A DNA stretch of 64,000 bases from Daphnia carinata (Eukaryota): assembly GCF_022539665.2 (NCBI RefSeq), contig NC_081331.1, positions 8,122,001 through 8,186,000 on the forward strand, read 5' to 3'. A program made the translations under genes and the position numbers. The number at the start of each line of letters is the position of its first letter. The first letter of the stretch is position 1. Shown in pieces: positions 1,055 to 59,129 of this stretch. The notes beneath the pieces are model-generated. The model worked only from the letters and a program-made list of their open reading frames with translations. It had not been told where the DNA came from and ran no database searches.

Positions 1055-1684
1055 ATTGTAGACCGCTGCCCGAAGGCAATTTCATCTCCTCGTTGGATAT
1101 CTCTGAGATGTCCGGCTAAGGATGTTCGAACAACGTCCCATTAGGTACGTCCATAGGATGTCTCAATGGCGTCGAAAGACGACGGACCTAAATCGGATCT
1201 GCCGACGTCTCTATGACATCCTCAAGACAAAGTGTGCTAGTAGGGTACTGCTGTACCATGCGATCCACACCGTGACGTTAGCTTTTATTTCACTAATTGT
1301 AGTGCTCGACCTCCATCCTATTGAAACAGTTTTATTGTTTGTGTTTTTAATCATTTCTTTTGGTTGCCTTTGTTAGTTCATTAACGTTAGCGAATAATTT
1401 TTTGGAACCCACACATTGTCTTCGTCATTCGTGTGAAAAACAGCCGCCTTAATAATTTATTGAATAAACAATGGTAAACCCCAAAATTTATATTATCTAA
1501 CAATTTTACTTGATTTTATATATTTCTTTGAAACAGCCAAATGTTTTTGTGTTACTTGAAACGCACGAGTCTTACTTTCATGGAGGGATCTTCTAAAGCA
1601 CTCCTGAGCATATCACCAACAATTTCTTGAATTGAAAATATTGGCATGTTCCTCCATAATTTTCCAGCTTCGTGCTCTCATTCC

Positions 1685-3130
1685 CATCTACAATGCTTTC
1701 AAAAGATTCTAATCATGAGTCGAAACGTACAAGAGGGCTTCCCGAAAAAGAAGGAAGTAATTGTAAACGGGAGGTCTGCTGGTTATTTTGGGCTGGTCAT
1801 TTAAATCGTTAACAGTGGCTGCTCTTGAGGGAGAAAAAAATTCAACCATGTTTGGATTCAATGTGGGAAATTTCGAAGTTCCTCCCTTCGGATTCTGAGG
1901 GTGCTCTGCAATGTTATGCGTAATTGCTCGAGATTCTCTTGCTTTTCTTCCGGTTGATTGGATCGCTGAACTCGTGGGGAGTGTTAAGTGCGTGAGGAAG
2001 TTGATGGTTGGTTTCCTCGGCGTGTCTGTCTTCCCCTCAGTGTGTTTTCCGACGGCGGAGATTCTTGCTGAATTGGCGCTGCTTGCTGTTGTGTTGGGTT
2101 CGGTTGTATGAATAACAGCGACTGTCTCAATTGTCTTTTTGTTTGCGTGAGTCTTTGTTTGATATCCCTCGCATGTTGCTCTTGGTAGCCCTAGTGGCTT
2201 GGTGACTTCAGGGAAATTGTTCAATTGGTTCAAGATGAATACCATTTCTGGCTGCAACACCTTCAATTGGTGACCGACTGTAGTTTCCTTAGATATGAGG
2301 ATAGGCTGTCGGCTTCCATTAGAAACGTTTGCTGAGATTCCAGCAGATAAATCTCCTCCAGCAATCTCTTCCAGGACGGATCTCTTCCAGTATTGATACC
2401 TCAGACACCTCCGAGGATGAGAGGATAATACTCTCCAACTCTCGTCCCTGTCTCTGATGTCTCGTCTCGGAACGAAATCGAAGAGCTACTTCTCCAATTG
2501 TTGGTGTGAGCTTTTGCAAGTCGATGATGTCGTAGATCTGTCCCTGCAGGAAAATCAAAAACTGTCTCGCGTGCGTCGTGAAAATTTTTGTCAGCTCGGT
2601 CACTAGTTGCTCCGTTTTCCGGTTCGTCTTCCTCTTAGTCGGCCCACGGGTTTTTCTTTCCAGAATGGACGTCGAGTATCCAAAAGAGTCGTCGGACTCT
2701 ACCAATCTGCTTGTGTTTGCGGGTAGACTTGGTTTTTCTTCCGGATGTCTTTCATCTACCAGATGAGAGGGTCTCAGGCTTTCGGGTCGCTTGACTGGAA
2801 CTCCTTCTCCCTCTCCTTGAAACTTCTGATGGCTAGTAGTAGGAACGGCAACTGGCTTATTGGTGTCTGGAAAATGCTGTCTTGATTCTTCTTTGCTTCT
2901 TGAGATATATGCTGGATGCTTACATAGAGCTGGTTTTCCATTGGGTGTATTTCTGTTCTGAAAAAGATTTGAAACAGTGCTCGATACAGCGCTTGATGGG
3001 GACGGGTTTTTGGAAACAGATTTCTTAGGTGAAGATGGCATACTAATTTAACTAGAAAGGAGGGCGAATTTTTCACAGTCGTGGCTTTAGAATTTGAGAG
3101 TCGTTTACCCACAACGCCGAATATATTTTC
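1685..3130 (-). pseudogene. Degenerate Ty3/Gypsy gag N-terminal region with overprinted-ORF remnant, related to the element at 29039-47625
   Basis: Peptides SPSRAATVNDLND, LESFESIVDG, QGEGEGVPV and LTKIFTTHARQFLIFLQGQIYDII align with the gag and +1 ORF at 29170-31131. Several frameshifts and stops. Confidence 0.8.
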
Positions 3131-25210: not shown

Positions 25211-26028
25211 TGTGGAGCGGCGTAAGTTGTGGTGTAGTATTCAGCAGCCTCTAGTATTGAGGAGCCTCTGTGTAGTAAAACGGGGCAGCATAAGTTGTGG
25301 TGTAGTAGGTAGGTTCCACGTAGTACGAAGTAGCAGCCGTGGTGTAGTAACTTGGGGCAGCGTAAGACTTCGGGGCTTCAGTGTAGTATGTCGGCTCGGC
25401 GTGGTACGACGGGGCAGCTGCCGTGTAGTAAGTTGGAGCTACATAAGATTTGGCTGCTTCTGTTGTGTGATAGGCAACTGCAGTGGTGGTCTAGCTGGGC
25501 GCAGCATAATATGTAGGGGGAGCTTCAGTATAGTAGCTCGGTGTGGCGTATGTCGTTGTGTAGTACGTCGGCGCAGCATACGTAGTTGTGTAATAAGAGG
25601 CTGTAGTGTAGTATTCCGGCGATTTGGTCGTATAGTATTGCGGAGGCTTGGTGTAGTAGCTGGAGGCAGCATATGTTGGTGTATAATACTCGGTCTTCTT
25701 TGTTGTGTAGTATTCGGGAGCCTTGGTGGTGTAGTAAGCTGGAGCAGCATAGGTTGTGGTGTAGTAAGGCGCTGAATTGGTGCAGTATGCAGAAGAAGAC
25801 GAACCCATTGGTCCACCCATGGCCTGTCCAGCCATCACAGAGACAACGGCCAACAGCGGCATCGCGCCGTAGTTAGCTGAAATTAAGATAATATACACAC
25901 ATAAATCTCTTGCCCCAATTGAGCACAGCGAAAACACACACCAATTTATTACAATTGATTGAAACTAAAATTGATCACAGGTTTAATTCCTACGACTATA
26001 TAGTAAAATTCAACATTAAATTACCCAT
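25211..26028 (-). pseudogene. Secreted Tyr/Thr/Ala/Pro-rich repeat protein (YYTTKAPEYYTTTYAAP family), disrupted
   Basis: Micro-exon ATGG (26028-26025), then an intron, then an exon from 25876 with a signal peptide (ANYGAMPLLAVVSVMAGQAMG) and repeats. Premature TAG at 25491; 3' end truncated against the TDRD12-like fragment. Confidence 0.75.
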
Positions 26029-29038: not shown

Positions 29039-29135
29039 ATCCATCATTGTGGGAAATACGCCTCCGAGCTCGTTATTATTTCCTTTTGTCTTAAATACCG
29101 TAAAGTCAGTCTTCCCACAAGGAAGATACTTTACA
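29039..29135 (+). repeat. 5' LTR remnant (last 97 bp only)
   Basis: Matches 47529-47625 with 1 mismatch and ends ...TTTACA. Confidence 0.93.
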
Positions 29136-29138
29136 TAA

Positions 29139-29149
29139 TGGTGGCAGCG
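29139..29149 (+). promoter_or_regulatory. Primer-binding site, tRNA-Leu-like
   Basis: TGGTGGCAGCG 3 nt after the LTR end, complementary to the ...CGCUGCCACCA 3' end of tRNA-Leu. Confidence 0.75.
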
Positions 29150-29169
29150 TTTTTCAGAGCTCTACCACA

Positions 29170-31966
29170 ATGATGGACGATGTTATGTCAGGTGGGCATA
29201 AACTTTCTCGTACACCTTTGAACACCCCGCTTATTCCTGTAACACCCGTAGTGCAAATCAATGACGAAACGATAGCTAAGTTCATTAGTTTCGAAAAATT
29301 GTCAGCTTCTTCCACGACCGTTCCGCATACATTGCAAGGCTGTCAGCCGTCAGAAAAAGGAACAGTAGATGTTAAGCAGTCGGCTTTTCCCATTTTAACT
29401 CCCAAAGTGCAGACAGATAACACCCAGTTGAAGAAATTGAGGTCTAACACGGCGTATGAGGCCGTATCTCCATTAGTTAAGCCTACCGCTAGGAGAATTT
29501 GGCCTGGTAGCAAAGCTTCCGTTACACCTACTCAAACCGCTCCATCTGTTTATGCAAGGTTAGCTTCTCGTTTTTCCCCCATAAAATCACCTGTGGGAAA
29601 CACATCAAAGACTAGTTTTCTCTCGAGCACTCTTTTAAGCTTTTTCCAAAAGAAAAGCCCAGTGAATGGACGGTCAACCCAAAGTGAGTCTCCATCACCT
29701 ATACCACGAGATCACGACCAACCAATCGAGAATATTCCCGGCACCAACGAGTCAGTTACCGTCCCTACTACTGACGCTCAGGTACCTCAAGGAGAGGGAA
29801 TTGGATTTCCAGTCAACCAATCCATTAATTTGGGAACAACTACGATCGTTGATGCAAACAATCCGGCTGCGGTACCAATACCAAGCCAACGTGACAACGG
29901 ATTTGAAAAACCCGAAGACACTCCTGAAAGCCTTGGGAGCAGTCCTTGAAACGATAGCAATTGGACAAACCAGGACAACGGCACAGGTTGCGGAGAACCA
30001 AGTGGCCGCGCTGACAGCAATCTTCACAACCTATGCGAGGGAGTTTACGATTTACCTACTAGGACAGACTTACAACATCGTCGAGTTACTGACATACACG
30101 CCGGCGAAGGACAAGGACCTGTTCAACTTTGTCCCCCAGGAAAGCTTGCTCAACAACCTCGAGGACAGGACATATTCCCTACTCGCAATCGAGATAGCGC
30201 AGTTCTCAACCTACCTAAAGGACACCCTGCGGGAGTACCAGCTGAAGTTCCTCAAGGACATCCTCCACCTGGTCCCTTACCTAAGAAAAGTTCAGCCCAT
30301 AAGCAGTTTGGAGGGATTATTGCCGGAACTGACATCGCTTCAGACCAAATTAAACAACTTCCAGACATCGGTGCAACCGGACGGGCAGCGAATAACGAAG
30401 GAAATCAGGGAAACACTCATTCCGGCTACCAACGAATTGAGACAGTTGCTATCATACATTCCGAGGACCCAGGAAGAACAGCAAACCACGCCGAGTCCGC
30501 AGGAATCGCCGCTGTCGGAACGCATTCCGAAGAGAAGGCGAGCACGCCAAAGAAACCGGCCTTCCAACCAGTCACGCACTCAACACCCTCCTCAAGCCCA
30601 GCAATCCAATCAGCAGGAAGATCTGATAGCGCAACTGAGGCGATTACGAACAGCATTTCAGGACACCCTCAGAATTCACGGCGAAAGACGTCGAATCCTC
30701 TCATATTCGATCCCGACATGGCCAAATCTTGTTCTCCTTCACGGGCTGCCACAGTCAACGACTTAAATGATTTTCAGACAAACCAACACACTTTTTCGCG
30801 CCTACAATTGCTTCCTTCCTTTTCGGGAAGTCCAATTTCTCGTTTTGACTCTTGGCTAGAATCTTTTGAAAGCATAGTTGATGGGGCAGCATGGTCAGAA
30901 GAAAAGATTATTCAGATGCTGCGAGCTAAAATAACAGATAAGGCTTTTTCAGTACTTCAAAACATTATCAGGCAGCATCCGCATGATTATGCGTCTATTA
31001 AAGAAGCGTTACTTGATCACTTTCATGGGGATGAAAACGTCGATGTCTATATAAAAAAATTCAATAAGGCTAAACGCAAACCAGGCGAAAAAATTCGTCG
31101 ACTATGCGCATCGCTTGCACGAGATTTTTAAGAAGGCGTATCCAGCGGGTTATGCAGAGAAATCGTTCACGATAATCCTTATGCAAAAATTTATCGAGGG
31201 GTTGGATTCCAAATTACAGGCCAAAGTACGTTATAAAGAATTTCGCGATTTTACCGAGCTTGTAGCATCAACGCGTATTTATGCCGTTCGTTTGGAAGCT
31301 TTAGAGACAGATCGGGAAAAACATGAGTTTGTTAGAGCAATCGATGGATCGTGTGACACAAAACATTCAGATTTGACGGAACTCAAGCAAATGTTAATCG
31401 ACCAGAAGGAAATAGTCAATAATGTCGTTGCTAATATTAGTCAAGGGAATAAAAATGCGGAGAGCCCGAAAGAAAACAGGGAAGACATTAGGGATGTTCT
31501 TCAGGAACTCACGCAAGCAGTCAAACAGCTCCAAAGGGACAAGAAAGATTATTCTTCTTCTCCAACAGGCAACCCTTATAAGAAACAAGTTTCGTTCCAA
31601 ACCAATAGCGGCAATCAAGACAGAAATTGGAGACCTCCTCCTCATCGACCCAATAATAACACCAATTCTTACCAAAATCCGGGATTCTCTAATAGACCTA
31701 CACAGTCCACGTCCTCGTTTTCCAGACCTTTTATTGATTCGAGAAATCGGCCTACTCAAAATGGAATAACTTGCAATTTCTGCGGTTTTCGTGGGCATAC
31801 ACAATCGGAATGCCGTAAATTCCAACGGCATAATTTAGAACAAGCACAGCCTCCAATTTGTTATTCTTGTCGTGAAATCGGACACAAATCGAATAACTGT
31901 CCTAAGTTCAGGAGCTCCGATAGGCCGAATATTCCAGCTCCCCCTCAGCGTCAGGGAAACCAATAG
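29170..31966 (+). pseudogene. gag: Long Gag: disordered N-terminus, capsid-like core, two CCHC zinc knuckles; one nonsense codon and one frameshift
   Basis: Frame 1 is open from 29170 to 31131 except TGA at 29947-29949. A one-base insertion near 31095 (GEKI / VDYAHRLHEIF) shifts into the 31115-31966 ORF. Motifs LPSFSGSPISRFDSWLESFE, QKFIEGL, CNFCGFRGHTQSEC and CYSCREIGHKSNNC. Confidence 0.85.
29666..30766 (+). CDS. Overprinted 366-aa ORF in the +1 frame of gag; amphipathic-helical-looking protein of unknown function
   Basis: Intact ATG-to-stop ORF lying entirely within the gag reading region. The start Met and three peptide blocks are conserved in the diverged relative at 1685-3130. Confidence 0.7.
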   Translation: MDGQPKVSLHHLYHEITTNQSRIFPAPTSQLPSLLLTLRYLKERELDFQSTNPLIWEQLRSLMQTIRLRYQYQANVTTDLKNPKTLLKALGAVLETIAIGQTRTTAQVAENQVAALTAIFTTYAREFTIYLLGQTYNIVELLTYTPAKDKDLFNFVPQESLLNNLEDRTYSLLAIEIAQFSTYLKDTLREYQLKFLKDILHLVPYLRKVQPISSLEGLLPELTSLQTKLNNFQTSVQPDGQRITKEIRETLIPATNELRQLLSYIPRTQEEQQTTPSPQESPLSERIPKRRRARQRNRPSNQSRTQHPPQAQQSNQQEDLIAQLRRLRTAFQDTLRIHGERRRILSYSIPTWPNLVLLHGLPQSTT

Positions 31967-31996
31967 ATATCAACTGTAACTTCGGGTCAGTTGATA
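31954..31996 (+). promoter_or_regulatory. -1 programmed ribosomal frameshift signal (gag-pol)
   Basis: Slippery G GGA AAC (31954-31960) in the gag frame, a 7-nt spacer, then a 9-bp stem TATCAACTG/CAGTTGATA (31968-31996). The -1 frame is open into the protease. Confidence 0.85.
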
Positions 31997-33898
31997 GGGA
32001 GCCTCAGTTAAAATCCCGACAAGTCGCAAAATTAACAACTATAACAAATGAATCGACCCCTAGAATTCCATTAAAAATTTTTCAGATACCGTTGCAAGCC
32101 TTATTTGATACAGGCGCGTCTAAAAGCATTATTCACGAGAGAATATTTCATAAGTTACCCCCGAGAGGTCAAGCGATCTGCAGTCAGCTTGATTTCGATT
32201 TGTATGATGTAGGGGAGAAAAAGTTACATACGCTGGGAAGAGTTACATTGCCCGTACGATACGGAGAGTCAGTTTTAAGACAAGAGTTTATTGTTACAAA
32301 TGGTGTTTCTGAAGACTGTATCCTTGGATGGGATGCAATCCAGAAGCACGGTTTTCGGCTTGACGGAGAAGCCAGGAGCATTTATTTAGCAAGGGATGAG
32401 CAGGGATCAGCCATCTCTAGGGTACCAGACATGGCAGTTACGACGGTCAAAAAGACGACGCTATTTCGTCAGACTTCGCTAGTAGTTGCAACGCAAATGA
32501 AAGGTTCATTTCCGTATGTCCCCCCTAATACCACATTTATGTTTACCCCAGCAGAGGATTTGCCGAACGGTATTTTTATTGAGGAATTCATTGGAAACGT
32601 ATCTAAAGATGGGAAATATCAAATTATGGTCGAGAATCATTCGTTAAATCAAGTCATACTTCCTAGGAACACTACATTAGGCGTAATTGAGATTATTCAT
32701 AACGTAATTGGGAAAATTGCTTTAAGTAAATTAGAGGAAAAGCCTACTATTAAAAGTGAGCCCGTTTTAATTTCAGAAGTCGACGCTGAATTTCAAGCTC
32801 CGCTCTCAAAACTATTAAATGACTTCCACGACTTGTTCGCAGCAAAAGATTCAGAATTAGGGAACACTAGTCTCATTAAACATACAATTGATACACAAGG
32901 AAGAGTCCCTATTCGACAACGCCCTTATCGAGTTTCAAATAATCAAAGAAAAATATTGGAAGATAAAGTACAGGAAATGTTGGATGCTAATGTGATCCAA
33001 TATTCACATTCGCCATGGGCTTCACCTGTGGTTTTAGTGGAAAAAAAGGGTGGAGAAGTAAGATTTTGCGTTGACTATAGGAAATTAAATAGTATTACAA
33101 AAAAGGATTCGTTTCCTATGCCGAGGATAGATGAAACATTGGACAAACTGTATGGGAAGAAATTTTTCACCACTCTTGATTTAGCTTCAGGTTATTGGCA
33201 AATTCAAGTTGATGAGCCGGCTATTGAAAAAACAACATTCGTAGTGGAAAATAACCTTTACGAATTTAAACGTATGGCATTTGGATTGTGCAATGCACCT
33301 GCGACATTTCAAAGACTAATGAATTATGTACTAAAAGACGTTTTGGGAAGTAAAGCGTTAGTTTACTTGGATGACGTAATCATCTTTTCAGACACTTTCG
33401 ACGATCACTTGAATGATATTCGGGAAATCTTTGAATTATTGAACAATGCCAATTTAAAATTAAAACTTAAAAAATGCCAGTTCATTAAAAGTTCAGTAAA
33501 TTATTTAGGCCATGTCATCTCGACTGATGGTGTTAAACCTGATCCGAGCAAAATTGAGAAAATAATTAATTATAAAAGACCCGCTTCGGTAGATGAAGTC
33601 AGATCATTTCTGGGTCTAGCTGGGTATTACAGACGATTTATTAAAAATTTTGGATCAATCGCCAAACCGTTAACCAGATTAACCCATAAAGAACTTAGCA
33701 GAAAACCTTTTAATTGGGGAAACGAGGAAAACATTGCTTTCGAAACCTTGCGTACATCTCTAGTGACTCCACCAGTACTGGCTTACCCCAATTTCAACGA
33801 GAAATTTTTCCTTTTCACCGATGCATGCGATTATGGCATTGGAGCGGTACTGTCCCAAATTCAAAATGGTCACGAGCACCCAATCGCGTATTCCAGTA
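31954..33898 (+). CDS. pol: Pol part 1: aspartic protease, reverse transcriptase, start of RNase H (interrupted by the CACTA element)
   Basis: ALFDTGAS, SPWASPVVLV, RFCVDYRKLN, LDLASGYWQI, FGLCNAPATFQR, YLDD and FTDACDYGIGAVLSQ. Confidence 0.95.
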
Positions 33899-34568
33899 CC
33901 CACATAGCACATCTCAGCCGTCGGATGTCCGATCCATGGCCGAATGTCCGTGTCTTCTATGGGCTGGCCCACGGATGTCCTTCGGCTAGTCTGGTTGGAT
34001 GTCCGATGGATGTGCAAAAATGATGTCCTAACAACATCCCTCGAGCAGACAAGAAGATCTTCAACAAATTTTTTTGAATATATTGAAAATAAAAATATTT
34101 TTAATAAATTTTTACTAAGTAGTTGCCTTTAACTCTAGAACCGTACATACCTTTTTTTGTTGTAGTGTGTAGGGAACACACAACCCTGAATGAAAGTGAC
34201 GGCATACAAACAGAATTATTTAAAAGATCCAATCTATTTTCGTCAACTTGTAATAAAAAAAAAAGGTGAGGCAGTACGAGGGGGACATAGCCAACTGTCG
34301 TTTGCTCATTATGGACGGAAACATCGAATTAACGACCATGGACTACATCCTTGACCTCTGCCGCTCTACCAGAGTTCCAGGTAAGACCCCAAACAAGTTT
34401 CTGGTAAAACTACTTTACATTTAAAAAAAAAGAGAAACATTACAGCTCACTCAACGATTTAAATTTAAGCAATGGACGGAGGTGACATTGTGGAACGGAA
34501 TGATGGATAAAGAGATTCCCAGTTGCAACTGTTTGTAGCCCAAATATTTGAGAGTGAGGCACACATTT

Positions 34569-35398
34569 TCAGATGTAAATCTGGCTGCCGTGTGATTGCA
34601 TCTGAACAACTAGATTGCTGTTGGCTTTCTTGCGTTCCACTGTCCTCTTGGCGTCCTATTTAGAATAGTTTGCTTGGTTTAGAATTATTTCATGGTGAAT
34701 TGCATGATGAGAACTTACGAAGTAGAAACTGGCTGTGGCAGCCATTCCGATGAACATGGCGATTACGGCAAACGCGTACGACCAAGAGAGGTAGTTGAAA
34801 TTTGGGTAGAGCATCCAGTCACGTCTCCAACATTGTCCACCAAAGACAGCCACCGACAGGAAGAGGCAAAAGGATTTCAAACCATTCATTAGTGCACAGG
34901 CAGACAGGATCTGCCACTGGTATCGGAATGTGAAGTTGAGCGGCCAACGAACAAGAAGCATTGTTGAGGCAATGTGGGCAGAGCAGGAAAATATCAAGGC
35001 CAGCGTCATAAAAGCCTGCACTGCCATCAGCCAACCTTTGGAGAGCAAATGAAAGAGTTGTGAAGTAGCCGGCAAAGGAAAGTGTGACTCTAAATTTACC
35101 TGGCAGCAACCATTCCCAAATCACAAAGTATGTCTTGCTGAAGACATAGTGGCAACCATCAACGAGGTCATCAAATTGGTAGTTTGGGTAACGGAATCTG
35201 CTAAAACAAAACTCCCAGAGACCCATGTTCTTGAACGGGCTGTATGTGTCTTGCCAAGAGACCAGCCAATGTGGACTGTAAACAAAGGGTAAATTGGCAT
35301 ATGAATGTTTGACAGAATTGGTTGGGATTACCTGGCAAATGACATAACCAACAGCATAAGTGATATAAAAGACAGAATGGATCCCAACATCAGTAAAC
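34569..35398 (-). CDS. pck: Claudin-family septate-junction protein (pickel/megatrachea-like): four intact exons inside the transposon; candidate first exon 35807-35726
   Basis: Exons 35398-35332, 35275-35100, 35035-34719 and 34655-34569 splice in frame at GT-AG sites: LLMLGSILSF...SPHWLVSW...NMGLWEFCF...GCH...LLPGWLMAVQAF...FGGQCWRRDWMLYPNFNYLSWSYAFAV...GSQIYI*. Claudin W-GLW-C-C signature and a terminal YI motif. Confidence 0.85.
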
Positions 35399-35926
35399 CT
35401 GTTAACGAAATAATTTCATTCACGTCATGTTGACAGTTACAGGCGCAAATCCCACTTGTCGTGTTTGTGAAAAACACATATAATACATGGTATTTAGAAA
35501 AATAATGGCCGCCTTTTTCCCCTATATATTAAATCAGCATTGTCAGATAACTTAAATGGCAGTGATATGTTCCAGCAGTTTATTAAATTTAAATTTACTT
35601 GAAATTACTATTTAATATGTAACGTAAAAACATCTACTTAAATTTCAACAGTGTTTTTATATAAGATAACTGTTTTATTAATAATAATTATTTGATAAGC
35701 AATTTTTTGAGAAGATACCATTTACCTGTGTTTAGGGAATGAACACCAAAAGCAAAAAAAATGGTAGTTCCGACTTCTTTCGAATGGGGATCTAGCGATT
35801 CAGGCATTCGTTTGGTAGCTGCCTTTGAGTCATGTGCTTTGTATGGTGTGGTTTGAATTTTTTGAAAATTAGCAGAACTTGGATTTTAAAGTGTGCATGA
35901 AAGACTTGCGAAACGTGTTCATCGCG

Positions 35927-36049
35927 CTGCCCAGCTGCCTTGCCGTACCCGCCCAGTTGGATTACCGAACCTGCCCAGTTGGCTTACCGGTCCTGCCCAG
36001 CTGCCTTGCCGTACCCGCCCAGTTGGCTTACCGGTCCTGCCCAGCTGCC
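35927..36049 (+). repeat. GC-rich, about 22-bp imperfect tandem repeat (GCCCAG core) in the CACTA leader
   Basis: Alternating CTGCCCAGCTGCCTTGCCGTACC and CGCCCAGTTGGCTTACCGGTC units. Confidence 0.8.
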
Positions 36050-36090
36050 TGGCTCTTCCAGCTCCCCTGCTGCCATCATTCTGTGGATAA

Positions 36091-39000
36091 ATGGATTCCC
36101 AAAACGTAAGTTAATATTAACCGGAATTTACCTTTTCAATATATTTTTCCATTTGAATTCCCGATTCCTTTTTTTACAATCGCCTCTTTAAGTTCGGCTT
36201 TTTCAGTTATTCCATTCCGTCGTCGCAAAATTTTTTTTCTCGCAATTGGAGCTTTTTTTTGCAGGGTATTTATTTTCCTTGTCCAAGTTTATACTTTCTT
36301 ATAGACATTTTTTCTAACGCTAACTTTTTGAGCTTACCGTTATGAGTAACAATGAAATTTTACCGAGCTCTCGAACAAAGAGGCGTCGGATTCAGAAAGA
36401 TTTACAACAACTTCGTTTAAGTTTAGTTAATGTTGAGGATATTGAAGTAGTAAGGGAGTCGTCGGACGAAGAGCGTTTTCCAAACGGCAATAATGGCATA
36501 GATTTTACTGAGGAAGAACACGCTGAAAATCTTTTCAGTGGTTTCGACGACGAGGTGTTAGCTTCTACTGAAGACGCATTTTCTATCGATAGCGATGTTT
36601 TTCCGGTTTCTTCTGAATCTGAATCTGAATCGACAGTTGACAGGGACGATGGTGCACAACCTGATGAAAGTGATTACGATGAGGAACACAACGGGTCGCA
36701 TAATTTACGCCATTTGCTTGCTTTATGGGCAGTTACATGGGGGGTTCATCAAAACGCAATTGATGCATTGCTAGCCATACTCCGTTTATTTCAATGGGGA
36801 TTAGATTTACCAAAAACCTGCCGAACCCTTCTGAAAACGCCTCGCAATGTCGACGTAAAATCACTTTCTCCCGGCAAGTATTACCACCATGGAATTTTAA
36901 AAGGTCTGGAATCAGTTTTAAACGTTATGCCGGCTTGTAGTGCTCTTGATCACGTCGACATTTTTGTTAATATTGATGGTCTCCCCATTTCCAAAAGCAG
37001 CGGTGGACAGTTTTGGCCAATTTTAGGGATCATCACCAATGCTAAATCTAGAAAAGTATTTCTTATTGGACTTTACCATGGTGATGCCAAACCTGATTCC
37101 ACAGAAGAATACCTTACAGACTTTATTTTGGAAGCTAAGGCTTTAAGTGAAAGTGGTTTTATTTTTCATGGCCGGCGCTTATCATTCAGAATATCCGCAT
37201 TCATATGCGACGCGCCTGCGCGTTCGTTCATTTTGAATACTAAAGGCCACACAGGTTATTTCGGTTGTGGGAGATGTATCCAACAAGGGGAATTTGAAGG
37301 TAGGGTAGTTTTCTTGGAAAGAAATTCGACTCTAAGAACTGATTACTCCTTTAGAAACCGCATTTATGAGGAGCATCACCATGGTGATAGTATTCTTGAG
37401 AACTTAGATTACCTTGATATGGCGAGGGATTTCCCAGGTGATCCAATGCACTTAATTGATTTAGGGGTGACGAGAAAGCTTTTATTGACGTGGATTAGAG
37501 GTCCACTCCCAAGAAGACTTCACAAAAGTTTAATAGACTCCATAAGCTCCCGCCTGGAAACTTTAAGCAAATTTATTCCAAGAGAATTCGCACGGCGTAC
37601 GAGATCATTGAAGTTTGTTGATCGCTTCAAGGCTACAGAATTTGGATTATTTAATAGCTGTGTTGGTCCTGTGGTTCTTTTGGGGATTTTGCCCAATCGA
37701 TTGTATAATAACTTTATCGTTTTTCATGTTGCAGTGCGAATTCTGTCATCATTCGCGTATTGCATAACGCACAATGATTATGCAAGGGAATTATTAGATT
37801 TATTTGTTAGGGAGTGTGAATCAATTTATGGCACATACTTCTTGTCCTTCAATGTCCATTCTTTGATTCACACTTGTGATGATGTTTTGCGTTTTGGTGC
37901 TTTGCCAAACTATTCAGCCTACGCTTTCGAAAATTATCTTTTTTCTTTAAAGAATCTTTTGCGCAAGTCCAATCAGGCATTGCAACAGGTAGTTAAACGT
38001 ATTCTGGAAATAGGACAATTCCAGAATGCGTGTTACAATGCAAAATCATCTAAAACTGGACGTTTTTTTAAACAACATGATAGTGGTCCTTTAATTCCCC
38101 ACCTCGTATTTTCCAAGCAATTTAAGGAAATGCAATTGGGTCCCTGGTTTCTAAGTTGTAAGGGACCTGATCATTGTGTTTATCTTGATTCTTCTATTGT
38201 TTTGGTCGAAAACATCATTCGCGGCAAGAATGGTGATTTCATTATTGGCAGGCGTTTTCAAGTAAAACGTTCACTCTTCTCTTATCCTCTACCGTCGTCG
38301 TCGTACGAAATATATACGGTGGGAGCTATATCAGAATTACTTGAAGCGTGGCCAGTGGCTGAAATTAAATGCAAGGCGGTCATGTTGCCAACTTTTTCGG
38401 GAAACAGTTGCGCAATGGACGGTACGTTTTCGGTTTTTCCTCTTTTGATGGAGGCACACACTTAGGGAGTGAAGCAATTGGGGTGAAGGGGGGAGTAATG
38501 AACTTTATTCTGATTTTACTTTTCTTTTATTTAGTCTAAACTTTTTTATTTTTCCCTTTTTATTGCGCAATACTCTCTAATTAGACCGGTGTAACGATAC
38601 ACATCCACTAGGAGTAGAATAAATGTACGATGTTGCAAAAAATAGGGGTGGTGCTATAAGCTGGTGAGCTACACCGTCTTTTTTTGTTTTGTTTTTTATT
38701 GTGGAATAGCACCATTTCTTATTATTGGAAGGGCCGGACGACGATCCATGGGTGCAATCAGTTCCTATTTCATGGTACGACAATGGATTCTGCTGGTGGC
38801 CTCCTAAGTCCAAGTCTAAGGATGTGTCCCGCTTTATAAACTTAGGCTACGAACCTAACAAGAAAACTTGGGAGTCTTATCCAGCTAGGGTCAGGAAAAC
38901 CTACGGTATTTTTTTATATTTTTTATCTCTACTTTTCGTTAATTTTGATAAAAATTAGCAACATATGCTGAAGCTAGAAGACATGAAAATAAAGTAGTAC

Positions 39001-40309
39001 AAAATGAGGACATCGCAATAACAGAAGATGAAATGGACAGGAGAATCAGGAGAACTAGGAAGATCAAACTCCCGTTCGACATCAGTGTTTCCCCTCCCCC
39101 TTCGAAGGGCAAACAGTTGAAGTCAAGATATAGGGAAATTGTGTCTTCTTCGGATGACGACAGTTGTCCTATTCCTCCAGTTCCTCCACGTAAAATAATT
39201 TTAAGTAGGTTTATTAATCTTTACTTTCAATCAATTCTGCGTTAATTCAATGTATTATTTTTTTTAGATAGATTGAGCGTTGCTGGAAGCCCGGCCAATA
39301 AAAGTGGGAATGGTGGGAATGCACTACCAACGTGCTCCGAGCTTATGCTTCCCCATTCAAATCCCGATGCGCAATCAGATGATAGTATTGACCATTATTC
39401 ACCTGCAGGTAATATTTCGTTTGATTTATAGTAATTTTATTAATAACAACTATTAATAATACACTGTTTTCCTTTTCAAATGAAAGGCACATCCAAGTCC
39501 ATTACATGTACAGCTCCACCTGTTTCTGTAGTTCCAATAAGAAGCTCCACTACGACTAAAAGGAGTAGCTTTGTCGAGATCAGAAATGGAGGTAAGCTTT
39601 AAAGTTTAGATTTTTATTAATTTCATTTATATATTTTTAATATACTTTTAGAATCCCGCGACGAGTTTCTTCAGCGTGGCATTATAACCATTGGCCATGG
39701 CACACGCGACAACAACGCCATCAGTGCAGCTTTACTGGAACGTCTCGATCGTATTGAGACTGCGTTTGTCGCCATGAGAAAGTCAGATGGAGATGCCAAC
39801 GAGGATTTCATGCAAATGCTGCCCCTCAACTCTATGGATGATTTTTACATATTCAACGACGATTTGAAAAGCAAATCAATGTCACAACGTTTGGTAATTT
39901 TTTTTAAATTATTAAAATTTGAATTAAATTAAACTTCAGGTGTTGTCTGTTTGTTTGTTTTTTAAATGTTTTCTAGAAAACACACCTGATCGCAATAGGG
40001 GGAAACACCCCAAGAACAATTGTTAGATCGATCGCCCGGCGGCTTATGACCAACGAACTAGGCAAATCTTTCAGCTGGTTTGGACATCGTAATAACAAAA
40101 AGCTAGCCGATACCAACATCGGAAAAGTGATAATTGGTATTTATTTTAAATATTCATGTTATCCGTTTCATTCGTTTATAATACGTATTGATCTTTCAGC
40201 TGCATCGGTACGTAACACGCCATTGATTACAGAGGCAGATGTTAAATCAGCCATGATTGACATGCTGCGACACTGTAAAGACAAACCTCGCACGGTCCCT
40301 GTCCTATGA
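36091..40309 (+). CDS. Second transposon gene (DUF4806-like C-terminus), multi-exon; the transposase lies in its predicted first intron
   Basis: Predicted micro-exon ATGGATTCCCAAAAC|GTAAGT (36091-36105) joins in phase 0 to 38710 (HHFLLLEGPDDDPWVQSVPISWYDNGFCWWPP...). Later exons give LPLNSMDDF, IGGNTPRTIVRSIARRLMTNELGKSFSWFG and MLRHCKDK, with a stop at 40309. Confidence 0.7.
36342..38465 (+). CDS. CACTA/EnSpm (Mirage-like) transposase, 707 aa, intact single exon
   Basis: LPKTCRTLLKTP, NIDGLPISKSS..FWPILG, CDAPARSF..TKGHTGYFGCGRC, DPMHLIDLGV, RFKATEF, FNVHSLIH and SAYAFENYL, all typical of animal CMC transposases. Confidence 0.9.
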   Translation: MSNNEILPSSRTKRRRIQKDLQQLRLSLVNVEDIEVVRESSDEERFPNGNNGIDFTEEEHAENLFSGFDDEVLASTEDAFSIDSDVFPVSSESESESTVDRDDGAQPDESDYDEEHNGSHNLRHLLALWAVTWGVHQNAIDALLAILRLFQWGLDLPKTCRTLLKTPRNVDVKSLSPGKYYHHGILKGLESVLNVMPACSALDHVDIFVNIDGLPISKSSGGQFWPILGIITNAKSRKVFLIGLYHGDAKPDSTEEYLTDFILEAKALSESGFIFHGRRLSFRISAFICDAPARSFILNTKGHTGYFGCGRCIQQGEFEGRVVFLERNSTLRTDYSFRNRIYEEHHHGDSILENLDYLDMARDFPGDPMHLIDLGVTRKLLLTWIRGPLPRRLHKSLIDSISSRLETLSKFIPREFARRTRSLKFVDRFKATEFGLFNSCVGPVVLLGILPNRLYNNFIVFHVAVRILSSFAYCITHNDYARELLDLFVRECESIYGTYFLSFNVHSLIHTCDDVLRFGALPNYSAYAFENYLFSLKNLLRKSNQALQQVVKRILEIGQFQNACYNAKSSKTGRFFKQHDSGPLIPHLVFSKQFKEMQLGPWFLSCKGPDHCVYLDSSIVLVENIIRGKNGDFIIGRRFQVKRSLFSYPLPSSSYEIYTVGAISELLEAWPVAEIKCKAVMLPTFSGNSCAMDGTFSVFPLLMEAHT

Positions 40310-40867
40310 GTCCCATCATCATTCCATTCATCATCCATTCACAAAGAAAAAAATTGTTTTTTTTTTTATGTTTCTCGTCTATATTCACAGTCAGTCACAG
40401 TCACACAGATACAGTCAGCCCGAATAATGTTGAAGCAATGTTTTGTTTTTGTTTTTGTAGTCAGACAAATGATTTCTTTATGAATCTGTTTTCCTTTTTT
40501 TGTTTTTGATCTGCATATGGTTGTGCAACACAAGGTTTCTCATGTTCATTAATCTGGTCATGTTTCAATACAAAGATCAAAAAATAACAACAGTCTTTTC
40601 TATTTCACGATTTTATTTTATTAATCAATAAAACGAATGAATATGCAGATATCCCTTACATGTCCAAATTATAGCCGTAAGAAGTCCGGTCAGATATCCT
40701 TCGGATGTCTGACGGCGCTGTTTTGGGCGGTCAAAACCAACAAAAAAACATCCGTCGGACATCCAAATCGGATTTCGGGCTGTCCGACGGATGTCAACAG
40801 GATGTACCTTATATCCGACCTCAACATCTAGCGGACATCCCACGGCCAGACTTGTGCTATGTGGGTA

Positions 40868-41540
40868 GACAGCTAACGAAGGCAGAAGCTAAATACAGTA
40901 CGACTGAAAAAGAGGCACTTGCGGTTATCGATGCGATTAAGCATTTTCGACATTACCTTTTAGACCAACCTTTTGAGATCATAAGTGATCATCGTCCACT
41001 TCAATGGCTTAAAAATCAGAAAGATAACAATGGGAGATTAGGAAGATGGGCTATCCTGTTGGCCGCAACGAATTATGAATTAAAATACAGACCGGGACGT
41101 ATTCATCAAAACGCGGATTGCTTGTCACGCTTAAAAATAGCTAGTATCCAAACCGAACGTAATATTAAATTAATTTGTGAAAGACAATTAGAAGACGACC
41201 TTTGCATAGTCATTCGAAATTATTTAGATAACGGTGAACTTGAAGAAGAATTTCTCCAATCGAAACCAGATTGGGTAAAAGAAATCGAGTATTTTGAAGT
41301 TATTGACGGTACGCTTTACCGGCACGTGCTGCCATCTTCTGATAACAAAGGAAACGAAACTCACCATCAGTTGGTCTTACCTACATCGTTACGTCATCTA
41401 GTGCTCAAAGAACTACATGATGCACCGATGAGTGGACATTTAGCCTTTTATAAAACCTATTTGAAAGTAAAGAATCATTATTATTGGCCAAATATGAGGA
41501 AAGACATAAAAAAATATTGTCAGGCTTGTGAGGTGTGCAT
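40868..41540 (+). CDS. pol: Pol part 2: remainder of RNase H and the integrase H2C2 zinc-binding domain
   Basis: TTEKEALAV, SDHRPLQWL, RLGRWA, NADCLSR and LHDAPMSGH...YWPNM...CQACEVC. Confidence 0.9.
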
Positions 41541-41745
41541 AATAATATTATTTAAAAAAAAATAAAACATTAATTTTATTTTTTGTTTATTTTTTCCTTT
41601 TATTAGAAAGACGTCGAGTCATGAAACTGATTCTATAACACTATATTCACAGTTTTTTTTTTTTTTTTTTTCTTTTTTTTCAGCTTGTAGCTCTAAACGT
41701 GGAATAGTGAGACTTTTAGAGACGATGAGGATAAACACCCTCCTC
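41541..41745. other. About 200-bp AT-rich insertion disrupting integrase
   Basis: A/T homopolymer-rich segment with stops between CQACEVC and (NY)RALLHPHEIAKAPFQVIGMDF. Boundaries approximate; no TSD recognised. Confidence 0.65.
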
Positions 41746-43061
41746 ATTCATCAAATTACAGAGCGTTATTGCATCCTCATGAAATTGCAAAGGCCCCTTT
41801 TCAAGTTATAGGCATGGATTTTCTAGGCCCTATCACACCAGTTTCGCCCAATGGAAACAGTTACATTTTAGTTATCACAGATTATTTTAGCCGATGGGTG
41901 GAAGCTGTTGCTTTAAAGGATCAGACTGCGCAGACAACAGCAGAATGTGTGTACAAAACAATAATAGTTAGACACGGTATGCCTAAAGCTATTGTTTCTG
42001 ATAGAGGTACTAATTTCACATCGAAATTGTTCAGATCCTTTTGTAAAAAGTTCAACATTGAACAACGCTTAACAACTTCTTATAATCCAGCTAGTATCGG
42101 CAAAACTGAAAGGTTCAATAGAACATTAACAACAATGTTGAGGAAAGAATTGAAAGACGGCGAGCACGCAAATTGGGAAGATTTACTGGATGATGTGTTG
42201 TTTGCTTATCGTAGTTCTGTCCATTCTTCTACACTGGACACCCCTTATTACTTATTACACGGTAGAGACCCCAATTTACCCATCAATGAATTTCTTGACG
42301 CGTCCCCAAAAACATTTATATCCGCATCGGATTACGTAGGTAACTTAGCCGAACGCTTGCGCTATAGTTTCCAACGCGTCCGTGAGGAGAGCGAAAAAGC
42401 CAGAAAACGTCAAAGGGAGCAATATAATAAAAGGGCGAATGTAAAACAATATTTGGTAGGAGATAGAGTCTTATTAGATATTAGAGTTGTAAAAGAGGGC
42501 GATAGTAGGAAATTTACTTCCAAATATAAAGGCCCTTATAGAATTGTAAAAGTATATTCCAATAATACTGTCGACATAGCCGACAATTCATATATATGTA
42601 TACGTACGCACGTTAACCGTTTAAAGCCCCTATATGAAACGATGTTATGGAAGGATGAACATTGTCCCCCTATCGAGTCGCCTTCAATATTCGAGAATCG
42701 ATTCCGTAAATCGATCTCGACCCAAACAATGGGAAGTGAGGAACAACTAGAACAAGAAACAAGTGAAGTAGAAAATGTGGAACCGGAAAAAGGACATCCA
42801 GATAGCGTAGATGTGGAGAATATGGAATCCGAAACAGTGGAAATTCAAAACATGGTGTCGGACACCGTGGAGTTAGCGACAACGAGGCTGGGAATTGACC
42901 ATCACCTCAATCTCACACCAATTGCCGAAGATTATTCCAATGATAATCATGAAACGCAGCAAACAGCGCCGGATGTCGTTCCGTCAGCAACAACGACACC
43001 ACAAAACGCAACCGGACGCCCGCAAAGGAATAGACAATTGCCAATGCGTTTCAGATATTAA
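41746..43061 (+). CDS. pol: Pol part 3: integrase catalytic core, GPY/F module and acidic tail
   Basis: IGMDFLGP, ITDYFSRW, IVSDRGTNF, TERFNRTL and KYKGPYRIV. Confidence 0.92.
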
Positions 43062-43235
43062 ATCTGATAACTCATCCGCATGCAAGTCTGCTGATCGCGT
43101 CTCAGAGAAAAAAAAACAAACTCGAAAGTATATAACAGTGAGTAGATCGAAAAGAGCCACATCTTTCCGACAACTCGTTATAGTCACAACTCTAACAAGA
43201 TTTATCTCCACACCGCAAAGCATCATCAAAGTAAG

Positions 43236-43658
43236 ATGGAAAACCAAACTAGCGTTCAACACGAACAAGACACCGTCGAAGGGACTGGTGACGACGTGCA
43301 AGCTAACGAAGTGGTGACAACAACGGAGCCCACTACTGACTTGTCCTGGGAGCCAGTGGCAGAAAACACGGTCGAGGGGGTCAACCCAACACCTCATTCC
43401 CCAGACCAGACTAGCCAAGACTCTTGGGATCAGGCCCATCGCAATTACGAGCGACGTCTCGACGAGAAAACCAACATACTCACCACAAGACTTAACGCCG
43501 ACCTCTTCGCTGAAGATTGGGCCAGCGCAGTTTACACCTTGAAAAGAATTCTGGACTTAGATCCAGCTAAACGCCACCCACCACTATACAACTGGCCATC
43601 AGAGCTGTGGAACACAGCTAACAAAAGGCCAAGGCGCGATTGGTACGACCAATTGTAA
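43236..43658 (+). CDS. Accessory 140-aa ORF between pol and env, function unknown
   Basis: Clean ATG-to-TAA ORF with an acidic N-half and a Trp-rich C-half. Confidence 0.55.
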   Translation: MENQTSVQHEQDTVEGTGDDVQANEVVTTTEPTTDLSWEPVAENTVEGVNPTPHSPDQTSQDSWDQAHRNYERRLDEKTNILTTRLNADLFAEDWASAVYTLKRILDLDPAKRHPPLYNWPSELWNTANKRPRRDWYDQL

Positions 43659-45061: not shown

Positions 45062-46756
45062 ATGTCTCTATTTCCATTTCTGCTGCTATTGTGCCTTCAC
45101 GGATTACACTCGCGAGCATTTGAAACAACCGTGTGCGATTGTTCGGAGCCGTCGAAAATGGGAATTATTCAATTCTCCGACGCGAATTGTCAGCCGAAAT
45201 CTACCAAAAATCGTGCCATCAGTGTAAAATATGCCGTATATAGTGAAGAACGAGCTGTGACCAAGTTTCCTGGATATATTTGTGCGCGCTGGAAAAATAT
45301 AAGACGTATTACAATGAATTTTTTCGGACAAACAGTGATCGTGCCAGATAAAATTTCCATCGATACAACACCTACCGAGTGCAACGAAATGATTAACAAT
45401 AAAAGGTGCGACAATCAACGAATGACTTTTTCGGATGGAAAATTTGTGTTCGATGATGAACCCGATATTTCTGGATATTGGTTGCAAACAATCGATTCCG
45501 AAATATTAAACTGTGTTCTCGATAAAATTCAACTTTTCCAGCAAAAGGAGAATGCGGATTTTTCAACACCTATCGGAACTGCTTCTGCTGCATCAGGAAA
45601 TTTGTCACATAATCATTTAACTCTGATTTGGGACAAAACCTACACACAGAAAACTAAAGCAATTACCCGGCTTGTCGAAGAAGGTATCGGCAAGTTGATA
45701 CAATTACCTGGGGAAAAACAAATTTTCCGACTTCAAGACGACCGAAATCAACTAGACTTTCATTTGTTGCCGTCATCGCGTTGTTTTTCAGTGCAGAAAA
45801 ATTGCTCCAATAAGACTTCTTCCTTTGAAATCCTTGGCCAATCACAACTCTTTGTCACAACGGCGGCCATCATGAAAAATTCAACAACATCGGAGCCTCC
45901 GGCGCCATCTAGCGCTGAAGATTTAAACATCCCGGCGAATATTCAATATATTCGAGATCAACTGACCGATCATGAAAACGAATTGGAAAGCCAAATTCAA
46001 TTATTACAGTGCGATGGTCGCAAAGCCAAACATGAAAGAGCCGTTACAACCGCTCAATATAATGGATGGTTAGCAGCCTCACAACTACAATTACCCAAGT
46101 GCACAAAATTACAAGCTTTCGGTAAAACGGCTGTACTGATCCAGTGTAAAGCCTTAAATGTCACATTCGATACTGTTTTGACTTCTTGCGGACCGCAACC
46201 AAAATTTCAAAATTATACAATTAACCTCGATGGCTGGGAACTTGTAAAATATTCCCCTTGCTATTGGACAAATGGATTTGTAAACTTTAACGATAAGCCT
46301 TATGCTTTCCGCAACAACACCTGGCAGCTGATTGAAGCCACAATTGTGCTGCCTGAGCAGACGCTCGCACACTCTTTTCGCTACGAAAACGTCGAGTTTT
46401 TCGATTACGTGCATCAAAGTAATCCGGCATATACCGACAACATGCTTAATCACATGAATATCATGGCTGATATAGCTGCCGCGATCAACGAACACCCGCC
46501 AGCGGAATATACCTTACGTCAAAGACCTAGTGCGACGAACATTTTTGTAACAGCTTCTAGTATCGGAAGCTATACATCTTGGTGGGAGACCATCAAGACA
46601 TATTTCTTCATCGGCATATTATGCCTTTTAGTGCTTCTTTTCTTACGCATTTGCTATAGTTGCGGCCTTTTCACCGTCATTTGGGTCGTATGCTGCCGTC
46701 CCACCTACAAATCACGGCAACCAGCTTCCGAATCCATCCCCATGCATGCAGTTTGA
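45062..46756 (+). CDS. env: Envelope-like type I membrane glycoprotein (564 aa), probably a class III fusogen
   Basis: Signal peptide MSLFPFLLLLCLHGLHSRA, Cys-rich ectodomain (CDC, GYICARW..FFG, EC..M....C, GYWL...NC), N-glycosylation sequons, C-terminal TM segment FFIGILCLLVLLFL. A pyrimidine tract and AG lie directly upstream of the ATG. Confidence 0.85.
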   Translation: MSLFPFLLLLCLHGLHSRAFETTVCDCSEPSKMGIIQFSDANCQPKSTKNRAISVKYAVYSEERAVTKFPGYICARWKNIRRITMNFFGQTVIVPDKISIDTTPTECNEMINNKRCDNQRMTFSDGKFVFDDEPDISGYWLQTIDSEILNCVLDKIQLFQQKENADFSTPIGTASAASGNLSHNHLTLIWDKTYTQKTKAITRLVEEGIGKLIQLPGEKQIFRLQDDRNQLDFHLLPSSRCFSVQKNCSNKTSSFEILGQSQLFVTTAAIMKNSTTSEPPAPSSAEDLNIPANIQYIRDQLTDHENELESQIQLLQCDGRKAKHERAVTTAQYNGWLAASQLQLPKCTKLQAFGKTAVLIQCKALNVTFDTVLTSCGPQPKFQNYTINLDGWELVKYSPCYWTNGFVNFNDKPYAFRNNTWQLIEATIVLPEQTLAHSFRYENVEFFDYVHQSNPAYTDNMLNHMNIMADIAAAINEHPPAEYTLRQRPSATNIFVTASSIGSYTSWWETIKTYFFIGILCLLVLLFLRICYSCGLFTVIWVVCCRPTYKSRQPASESIPMHAV

Positions 46757-46789
46757 TTACGGGACGTAATCTCACGCCGCCGGGAGCGA

Positions 46790-47625
46790 TGTAACGAAGC
46801 CAATATACGCCTTCTTATATTCTCATGCTTCCACTTATATCTTATACCTATATTCTCTTCTGCAACATCTTTAATAAGTAATTAGTATAAACATGTCAAT
46901 TGCAACACCATATATACGCAACACGGGTGACCTAGATGAACACCTGCTAGCTAGCTGACGCATCCATGTGTCATCAGCATCACGCCACTTATAAAACATC
47001 TTTCATTGGCGCCCATCATCGCATCATTATCACGCCATTTTAAACATCTTTGATTGGTCGCAAATACTCGCACAGCAACTCACCAATTTGCCAATATGCG
47101 AAGTGTAATCGTGAACACAAAATATGGGAAAGATCAGACAAGGACCCGCGTCTGAGCAAAGTAGTCGCCTGAATTCATTCGTGTTGCTCCTATCTTGATT
47201 AGTAGTATTGCGCAGTAAATTGTACTCTAGTGGAAATCTTATTTGCTTAACTTGCCTTAATTTGCATCTGTTCAACTTAATTACTCTGGGACAGTGCCTT
47301 TGTCCTTTCTTTAAACACTTGTTCAATCCATTTTGATTGTGAGTTGACTTCGTGAGCGTGAGGTTATCTCGTTCGCTTCCGTGTCGATTCCTTTCCGCTA
47401 CCTACTCGTGTTATCACGGTAAGACTTGGTTACAATTGTCCCTCTCTTTCCCTCTCTTTATTTTCCCTACTGTATCTGAATTCCTCTTATGTCTTGCTTC
47501 TTGTAGTATGCTTAACGTAGAACAATAAATCCATCATTGTGGGAAATACGCCTCCGAGCTCGTTATTATTTCCTTTTGTCTTAAATACCGTAAAGTCAGT
47601 CTTCCCACAAGGAAGATGCTTTACA
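46790..47625 (+). repeat. 3' LTR (836 bp)
   Basis: TGTAAC...TTTACA termini, TATAAA at about 46990 and AATAAA at 47524. The last 97 bp match the 5' remnant. Confidence 0.9.
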
Positions 47626-59110: not shown

Positions 59111-59129
59111 CCGGCGTTTAGAACAAATA

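What the first reader, a model, noticed from the sequence alone, without database searches (positions are those of the whole stretch)
29666..30766. Conserved overprinted gene hidden in the +1 frame of a Gypsy gag
Seen: translated codon by codon, the gag frame is open from 29170 to 31131 except for one TGA at 29947. That stop is plausibly a CGA>TGA change, which would be silent in the other frame. A separate 366-aa ATG-to-stop ORF occupies the +1 frame for 1.1 kb. The gag-frame peptide there is P/S/T/G-rich and disordered-looking, while the +1 peptide looks amphipathic-helical. The diverged relative at 1685-3130 keeps the same start Met and three blocks: MENQLYVSIQHI…SQLPFLLLAIRSFKEREKEFQSSDP vs MDGQPKVSLHHL…SQLPSLLLTLRYLKERELDFQSTNP; LTKIFTTHARQFLIFLQGQIYDII vs LTAIFTTYAREFTIYLLGQTYNIV; LQPEMVFILNQLNNF vs LLPELTSLQTKLNNF. 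Inference: a virus-style dual-coding accessory protein in an LTR retrotransposon family, which I do not recognise as described.
Basis: partly seen in the sequence, partly recalled or inferred. Interest (0 to 1): 0.85.

Follow-up and report, generated by a model that had tools for sequence, protein, structure and literature searches.

The report
Hidden second gene inside retroviral gag
Envelope-carrying retroelements of water fleas keep a second, roughly 350-codon gene nested in a shifted reading frame inside their capsid gene; its product is predicted to fold into a helical bundle with no match in the structure searches and may help export the element's RNA from the nucleus, a kind of accessory gene not found in print for these elements.

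Summary
The overlap is real and conserved. The window holds a decayed Daphnia-type Ty3/gypsy errantivirus with a class III env. A 366-codon ORF (29666-30766) lies wholly inside gag, in the +1 frame. A distant intact relative (L001) has a stop-free 1019-aa Gag and a stop-free nested 352-aa +1 ORF. Both frames are stop-depleted: +1 frame 0 and 0 stops against 7.5 and 9.8 expected; gag frame 1 and 0 against 20 and 26. Database Gags of about 900 aa follow the gag frame, so compensating indels are excluded. The +1 protein is the constrained one (window vs L001 E 4e-27; gag frame E 0.002). It is predicted to fold as a ~265-residue helical bundle (pLDDT 87) with no Pfam or fold match. An arginine-rich stretch and an export-signal-like helix follow. 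The gag-frame peptide looks like a read-through spacer, as in the hepatitis B polymerase spacer, so which frame overprinted which is open. One sister lineage lacks the whole cassette. Function is inferred only: best guess a Rev-like RNA export adaptor (about 0.4). No expression data were available.

The parts
29666..30766 (+). Nested +1-frame ORF (ORF-X), 366 aa
   Evidence: homologues; stop depletion
29666..30457 (+). ORF-X residues 1-264: predicted all-helical folded domain, no transmembrane segment
   Evidence: L001 homologue pLDDT 87, pTM 0.85; hydropathy
30518..30553 (+). Arginine-rich stretch in the low-confidence linker (residues 285-296), candidate RNA-binding or nuclear-localisation motif
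   Evidence: alignment
30605..30676 (+). C-terminal amphipathic helix (residues 314-337) ending in a class 1c export-signal-like pattern
   Evidence: pattern classes recalled, function untested
29170..31966 (+). gag: N-terminal arm, P/S/T/G-rich spacer over ORF-X, capsid and zinc knuckles; broken here by a stop at 29947 and a frameshift near 31095
30718..30720 (+). Internal gag-frame Met 12-14 residues before the capsid-start motif
   Evidence: 15 of 15 Gags examined, plus L002
29620..29665 (+). Pyrimidine-rich tract with AG dinucleotides upstream of the ORF-X ATG, candidate splice acceptor
   Evidence: seen by eye in 4 of 4 loci printed; untested
29039..29135 (+). Remnant of the 5' LTR (97 nt, 99% identical to the end of the 3' LTR)
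29139..29150 (+). Primer-binding site of the type listed for Daphnia pulicaria gB-env errantiviruses 3 and 4
31954..31960 (+). Slippery heptamer at the gag/pol junction (pol in the -1 frame)
   Evidence: similar site in L001; role inferred
31924..43061 (+). pol (protease, RT, RNase H, integrase), interrupted at 33897-40867 by a nested DNA transposon
43236..43658 (+). Extra 140-aa ORF between integrase and env, not studied
45062..46756 (+). env: class III fusion glycoprotein with signal peptide and C-terminal hydrophobic segment
   Evidence: Pfam E 0.011, weak; atlas score 0.98 to a cluster with PF24664 41%, PF00974 15%
46790..47625 (+). 3' LTR (start inferred from a purine tract followed by TGT)
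1683..2984 (-). Decayed gag fragment of a related family with the same cassette (ORF-X ATG at 2941, terminal stop in register)

Best explanation
Daphnia env-carrying Ty3/gypsy elements hold a conserved second gene nested in the +1 frame of gag, and its product is likely a separately made nuclear RNA-binding shuttle that would work like retroviral Rev. Shown: both frames are kept open; the +1 frame carries the sequence constraint; the cassette occurs in both main capsid clades and is absent from one lineage. Inferred: ribosomes starting at the first AUG after the primer-binding site read the cassette in the gag frame as a tolerant, likely disordered spacer to reach capsid and Pol. ORF-X is likely translated from its own AUG on a spliced subgenomic RNA. 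Predicted: a ~265-residue helical bundle (a possible oligomerisation scaffold), an arginine-rich motif that would bind element RNA and enter the nucleus, and a terminal export-signal-like helix that would recruit CRM1 to carry unspliced genomic RNA out. Probability that ORF-X is a real selected gene is about 0.93; the confidence below is for the full Rev-like mechanism.
For: L001, found by capsid motifs and not by ORF-X, has an open 1019-aa gag and an open nested 352-aa +1 ORF. Stops observed vs expected: +1 frame 0 vs 7.5 and 0 vs 9.8; gag frame 1 vs 20.3 and 0 vs 25.9; control frames and flanks are not depleted, bar a mild window +2 deficit, 23 vs 30.9. Independent BLASTP per frame, window vs L001: +1 97 bits, gag 26, third 20; +1 is best in 5 of 5 pairs. 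pN/pS is 0.57-0.72 in +1 and 1.0-1.42 in the gag frame over 5 pairs (aligned on the +1 protein). On a frame-blind DNA alignment to the in-window relative it is 0.65 vs 0.89. Mismatches peak at the +1 third position (0.43) against 0.13 at that position in capsid. A phmmer search gave 22 hits; 20 align as family members or fragments, and 2 are unrelated repeat proteins. D. magna Gags match D. magna +1 proteins in register at 40 of 40 positions, shuffled 19-23. Arg-rich stretch plus a class 1c pattern near the C-terminus: pattern in 8 of 9 sequences; the same pattern is in 0-16% of 25-residue windows of the helical domain. Rev-like proteins are defined by NLS/RNA-binding, NES and oligomerisation domains (PMC10746203 passages). 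Insect errantivirus env is made by splicing (PMC12992720 passages).
Against: No expression evidence of any kind. Arg-rich and NES-like patterns are short and common in amphipathic helices. The 9 sequences tested are related, not independent. P0036 lacks both motifs. Rev-like proteins I recall are far smaller and lack a 265-residue bundle. No structured response element was found: 1 of 30 and 0 of 31 windows reached z <= -2 over gag (the rest of the element was not scanned). The acceptor is not a uniform YAG in all four loci. In the in-window relative all 5 internal stops fall in the +1 register and none in gag (P about 0.07 under neutral decay). Gags P0022, P0024 and P0026 lack the cassette, so it is dispensable in at least one lineage. 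Only two loci with usable DNA came from outside the window. pN/pS at this distance is near saturation.
Confidence: 0.4

Rival explanations
1. ORF-X is a structural or assembly protein: a matrix substitute or a capsid-assembly chaperone, like the AAV assembly-activating protein nested in its capsid gene (recalled analogy).
For: It sits where a matrix domain would be, while the gag frame has no conserved folded domain before capsid. It is all-helical with a basic tail. The element carries env.
Against: The export-signal-like helix is unexplained on this reading. A sister lineage makes Gag without it.
Confidence: 0.25
2. ORF-X suppresses host RNA silencing (piRNA or siRNA), as several nested viral genes do.
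For: The overlapping-gene review lists silencing suppressors among common products of overlaps (PMC8227390 passages). The basic motif could bind RNA. This copy sits among piwi-like genes, which is circumstantial.
Against: Steady conservation with pN/pS below 1 rather than rapid change; the terminal helix pattern is unexplained.
Confidence: 0.2
3. ORF-X is the true N-terminal domain of an alternative Gag, joined to capsid by a programmed frameshift or a splice.
For: Fused ORF-X/capsid frames exist: L002 (681 aa), P0064 (850 aa), and gene models P0002 and P0050.
Against: The junctions lie at different places. D. pulex copies of the L002 family read through the L002 junction in the +1 frame (P0075, P0077, P0078, P0080). 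Three 424-aa members are among the 15 of 25 listed in P0064's cluster, and P0039 ends at the conserved terminal helix. Any single indel in a doubly open region gives such a fusion.
Confidence: 0.08
4. ORF-X is not a gene: a by-product of gag composition or of compensating indels.
For: P/S/T-rich frames leave fewer stops in the +1 frame. Codon usage of the +1 frame is unlike the rest of the element (r -0.14 and 0.10). No expression was seen.
Against: The null model keeps the Gag protein fixed and still expects 7.5-9.8 stops. Conservation is in the +1 frame, not gag. The model is confident. Full-length Gags follow the gag frame.
Confidence: 0.05

Closest known systems
Branchiopod HSV/gB-type-env errantiviruses (e.g. 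Dpul_errantivirus_3 and _4 in the supplement of PMC13524379)
   Same: Daphnia host group, gag-pol-env order, class III env (resemblance to the listed Dpul_3 env seen by eye only), same primer-binding-site type.
   Different: No nested ORF was seen there: 'overlap' occurs 0 times in the main text and 0 times in the 7 supplement files held. Whether those exact elements carry ORF-X could not be checked.
Hepatitis B virus polymerase spacer / preS overlap
   Same: A poorly conserved linker in one frame lets a polyprotein read through a region that encodes another protein. One model has the spacer arising inside the older gene (PMC8227390 passage).
   Different: Here the linker lies in Gag, and the nested product is predicted soluble and helical, not an envelope protein; no homology.
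Retroviral Rev/Rex/Rem/Rec export adaptors
   Same: Arg-rich motif plus a hydrophobic export-signal-like motif in an accessory ORF of a gag-pol-env element.
   Different: No sequence or fold match found; much larger; encoded inside gag; no response element or function shown.
Paramyxovirus P/C, tombusvirus p22/p19, AAV cap/AAP nested genes (P/C and AAP recalled)
   Same: An alternative-frame protein nested in another gene; in P/C a helical protein overlaps a disordered region.
   Different: Unrelated viruses; no homology found.
Ty1 p22/p18 (search listing and abstracts only)
   Same: A second product from within GAG; the conserved pre-capsid Met here could give a similar short Gag.
   Different: p22 is in frame with Gag; ORF-X is out of frame and unrelated in sequence.

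Membership tests
Ty3/gypsy errantivirus (Metaviridae, env-carrying) | pol domain order protease-RT-RNase H-integrase | tested here: met
   Pfam hits in that order across 31924-43061
Ty3/gypsy errantivirus (Metaviridae, env-carrying) | LTRs, primer-binding site, gag with capsid and zinc knuckle | tested here: met
   the 5' LTR is only a 97-nt remnant
Ty3/gypsy errantivirus (Metaviridae, env-carrying) | env gene downstream of pol | tested here: met
   class III fusion look-alike with signal peptide and hydrophobic anchor
Ty3/gypsy errantivirus (Metaviridae, env-carrying) | Placement in the errantivirus RT/integrase tree | not tested
   only a 14-row capsid tree was built
True dual-coding (nested) gene | Both frames stop-depleted beyond composition | tested here: met
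   2 of 2 loci tested
True dual-coding (nested) gene | Purifying selection on the alternative frame | tested here: met
   distances near saturation
True dual-coding (nested) gene | Translation of the alternative frame | not testable with these tools
   no sequencing run was listed; no proteomics
Overprinted (de novo) gene with gag ancestral | Younger, less constrained frame with atypical codon usage | tested here: inconclusive
   codon usage slightly favours gag as older (confounded by stop avoidance); conservation favours the +1 frame as the constrained one
Rev-like export adaptor | Arg-rich RNA-binding/NLS motif | tested here: inconclusive
   Arg-rich stretch in the full-length homologues, absent in P0036; binding untested
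Rev-like export adaptor | Functional CRM1-dependent NES | tested here: inconclusive
   pattern near the C-terminus in 8 of 9 sequences; a pattern only
Rev-like export adaptor | Oligomerisation | not tested
   no complex prediction was available
Rev-like export adaptor | Cognate structured RNA response element | tested here: inconclusive
   no strong local structure over gag; pol, env and UTRs not scanned

The most novel reading that the evidence does not exclude
A lineage of invertebrate Ty3/gypsy endogenous retroviruses independently evolved into 'complex' retroviruses. They carry a Rev-like regulator with a new helical fold, hidden entirely inside gag, and Gag itself was extended through that older gene as a spacer. 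This would be regulated RNA export by an accessory protein outside the Retroviridae.
Probability: 0.3. Interest if true: 0.9.

Novelty: new variant of a known kind. Interest (0 to 1): 0.76.

Why it matters
Ty3/gypsy elements are treated as gag-pol(-env) elements. A 1.1-kb fully nested gene, kept across families whose capsid regions are only about 50-60% identical, shows they can hide accessory genes that one-frame annotation misses; in the databases it surfaces only as unnamed fragments or chimeric gene models. It supplies a new predicted helical protein family and a natural pair of lineages with and without the cassette. It also gives a tractable case for how long overlaps arise and whether retrovirus-style regulation evolved more than once.

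Tried and rejected
No genome is held for the window, so copies could not be collected genome-wide. No sequencing run was listed; this is no evidence on expression. Viral contigs gave no relative for Gag or env. Prokaryote genomes gave 2 marginal short hits (L004, L005), not used. The metagenome scan gave 3 loci; L003 lacks the upstream region and was used only in the tree. Pfam: 0 families for ORF-X and 5 single-member weak hits over 20 members. The PDB sequence profile gave one hit at E 0.23. The atlas gave no usable hit for ORF-X. Foldseek gave no match at E <= 0.001 in PDB or in viral models. VIA-align best Z 11.0 (rmsd 6.6, 219 aligned) and 10.4 (rmsd 5.5, 207 aligned), both designed repeats; the STAT1 coiled coil scored Z 9.7-9.9 (rmsd 2.5-2.9, about 140 aligned). 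All are below the tool's level for helical bundles, which shows neither a relative nor a new fold. Complex prediction of ORF-X with capsid was not available. Leaky scanning was judged unlikely in the window (8 ATGs from the gag start to the ORF-X ATG) but is not excluded in L001 (3 ATGs). Searches used the wrong frame of the relative and carry no information. P0020's Gag showed no frame compatibility with the 7 +1 proteins tried, so its cassette is inferred only from its length. Earlier scan findings: none. Literature searches listed no report of a nested +1 ORF in Ty3/gypsy gag; most were seen as listings only. Repbase, subscription journals and bioRxiv supplements could not be seen and may annotate it.

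Full report
Observation. The +1 ORF (ORF-X) runs 29666-30766, 366 aa, with its ATG directly after an in-frame stop. The gag frame is open from 29104 to 31131 except for the TGA at 29947. Composition differs as described: gag frame 38% P/S/T/G, ORF-X 32% hydrophobic. The minus-strand relative (1683-2984) has the ATG and the three quoted blocks, spread over different frames, and its terminal stop is in register.

Context. The ORF belongs to a decayed Ty3/gypsy element spanning about 29039-47625. It has an LTR remnant and primer-binding site, gag (also frameshifted near 31095), and a slippery site at the gag/pol junction. Its pol is split by a nested transposon, and an extra 140-aa ORF and an env follow. 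The env resembles class III viral fusion proteins. Named homologues are all Daphnia. PMC13524379 (passages and supplement rows read) lists 24 Daphnia errantiviruses. Two D. pulicaria gB-env entries have the same primer-site type, and one listed env resembles this one by eye.

Is it an indel artefact? No. A capsid-region search returned 31 reported proteins. Of 15 aligned, the D. magna Gags of about 900 aa follow the gag frame through the whole region. A metagenome scan by capsid motifs, blind to ORF-X, gave 3 loci, 2 of them with upstream DNA. L001 has an uninterrupted 1019-aa Gag and an uninterrupted nested 352-aa +1 ORF. L002 has both frames open in two halves around one shared indel, and D. 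pulex proteins of that family read through that point.

Is it chance? With the Gag protein fixed and codons resampled, 7.5 (window) and 9.8 (L001) stops are expected in +1, and 0 are seen. With ORF-X fixed, 20.3 and 25.9 are expected in the gag frame, and 1 and 0 are seen. None of 3000 replicates reached these values. The flanks and the third frame are close to expectation. Both frames are therefore likely translated.

Which frame is constrained? ORF-X. Frame-by-frame BLASTP for window vs L001 gives E 4e-27 for +1 and 0.002 for gag, and +1 is best in 5 of 5 pairs. pN/pS is 0.57-0.72 against 1.0-1.42 (aligned on ORF-X, so biased towards it). On a frame-blind DNA alignment with the in-window relative it is 0.65 against 0.89. 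The mismatch peak moves from gag third positions in capsid to ORF-X third positions in the overlap. The family reaches about 25% identity: 22 phmmer hits, of which 2 are unrelated repeats, and 11 profile hits. Codon usage does not settle which frame is older: r is -0.14 and 0.10 for +1, 0.15 and 0.27 for gag, and the test is confounded by stop avoidance.

The protein. AlphaFold gives a helical domain for residues 1-264 (window model mean pLDDT 75 with the tail; L001 domain 87, pTM 0.85). There is no transmembrane stretch. A low-confidence linker with an Arg-rich motif follows, then an amphipathic helix matching a class 1c export-signal pattern near the C-terminus in 8 of 9 sequences; P0036 is the exception (pattern classes recalled).

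Distribution. In a 14-row capsid tree, the cassette is present in the window/D. magna clade, in the L002/P0061 clade and in L001. Gags P0022, P0024 and P0026, close to L001 in capsid, lack about 430 residues that match the cassette. Loss is the simpler reading, but the root is only a midpoint and recombination was not tested. All 15 Gags examined have a Met 12-14 residues before capsid, which hints at a short Gag or at an older gag start downstream of ORF-X.

Mechanism. Shown: two open frames, and constraint on ORF-X. Inferred: Gag starts at the first AUG after the primer site and crosses the cassette as a spacer, as the hepatitis B polymerase does (PMC8227390 passage). ORF-X has its own AUG. 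In the window 8 ATGs precede it, and a pyrimidine tract with AG lies just upstream in 4 of 4 loci, so splicing is likelier than leaky scanning; insect errantivirus env is spliced (PMC12992720 passage). An element that splices must still export unspliced RNA, and the motif pair matches the Rev-like layout (PMC10746203 passages). I put this at about 0.4, against an assembly or matrix role at 0.25, a silencing suppressor at 0.2, a programmed fusion to capsid at 0.08 and a non-gene at 0.05.

Against. There are no expression data. The motifs are short and the sequences related. No structured RNA element was seen over gag. The in-window relative has 5 stops in ORF-X and none in gag (P about 0.07). 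One lineage lacks the gene. Only two outside DNA loci were usable.

Novelty. The element group is catalogued; the nested gene was not found in print. 'Overlap' occurs 0 times in the main text and held supplements of PMC13524379. PMC2996953 (passages and section 6) and PMC12440569 (passages) showed no such ORF in what was read. Eight searches listed nothing on it (listings and abstract starts only). Repbase, subscription papers and bioRxiv supplements were not visible.

Verdict. A real, conserved, fully nested gene in an errantivirus gag, encoding a new predicted helical family of inferred function. New variant of a known kind; interest 0.76.

Noticed in passing
window 27401-29037: Tandem piwi/aubergine-like gene pieces (Piwi_N and PAZ hits) directly upstream; the element's 5' remnant abuts a further 5' piece of such a gene.
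   Followed up: no
window 33897-40867: Nested cut-and-paste transposon with about 36-bp inverted ends and a 713-aa ORF (36324-38465) without a Pfam hit, splitting RNase H.
   Followed up: partly
window 43236-43658: A second possible accessory ORF (140 aa) between integrase and env.
   Followed up: no
window 30718; L001 1933; L002 1629: Conserved internal Met just before capsid in 15 of 15 Gags; a possible short Gag isoform.
   Followed up: partly
P0022, P0024, P0026: Gags that lack the whole dual-coding cassette although close to L001 in capsid; whether those elements keep env is unknown.
   Followed up: partly
window 56268-60648, minus strand: DIRS-like element with tyrosine recombinase and RT/RNase H in overlapping frames, the usual layout for that group (recalled).
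   Followed up: no
L001 about 1700-1900: Tandem 33-nt repeat just after the ORF-X stop, open in the gag frame but with stops in the +1 frame.
   Followed up: no
window 49137-52327 and 25252-25845: Tyr/Thr-rich repeat genes in inverted orientation.
   Followed up: no
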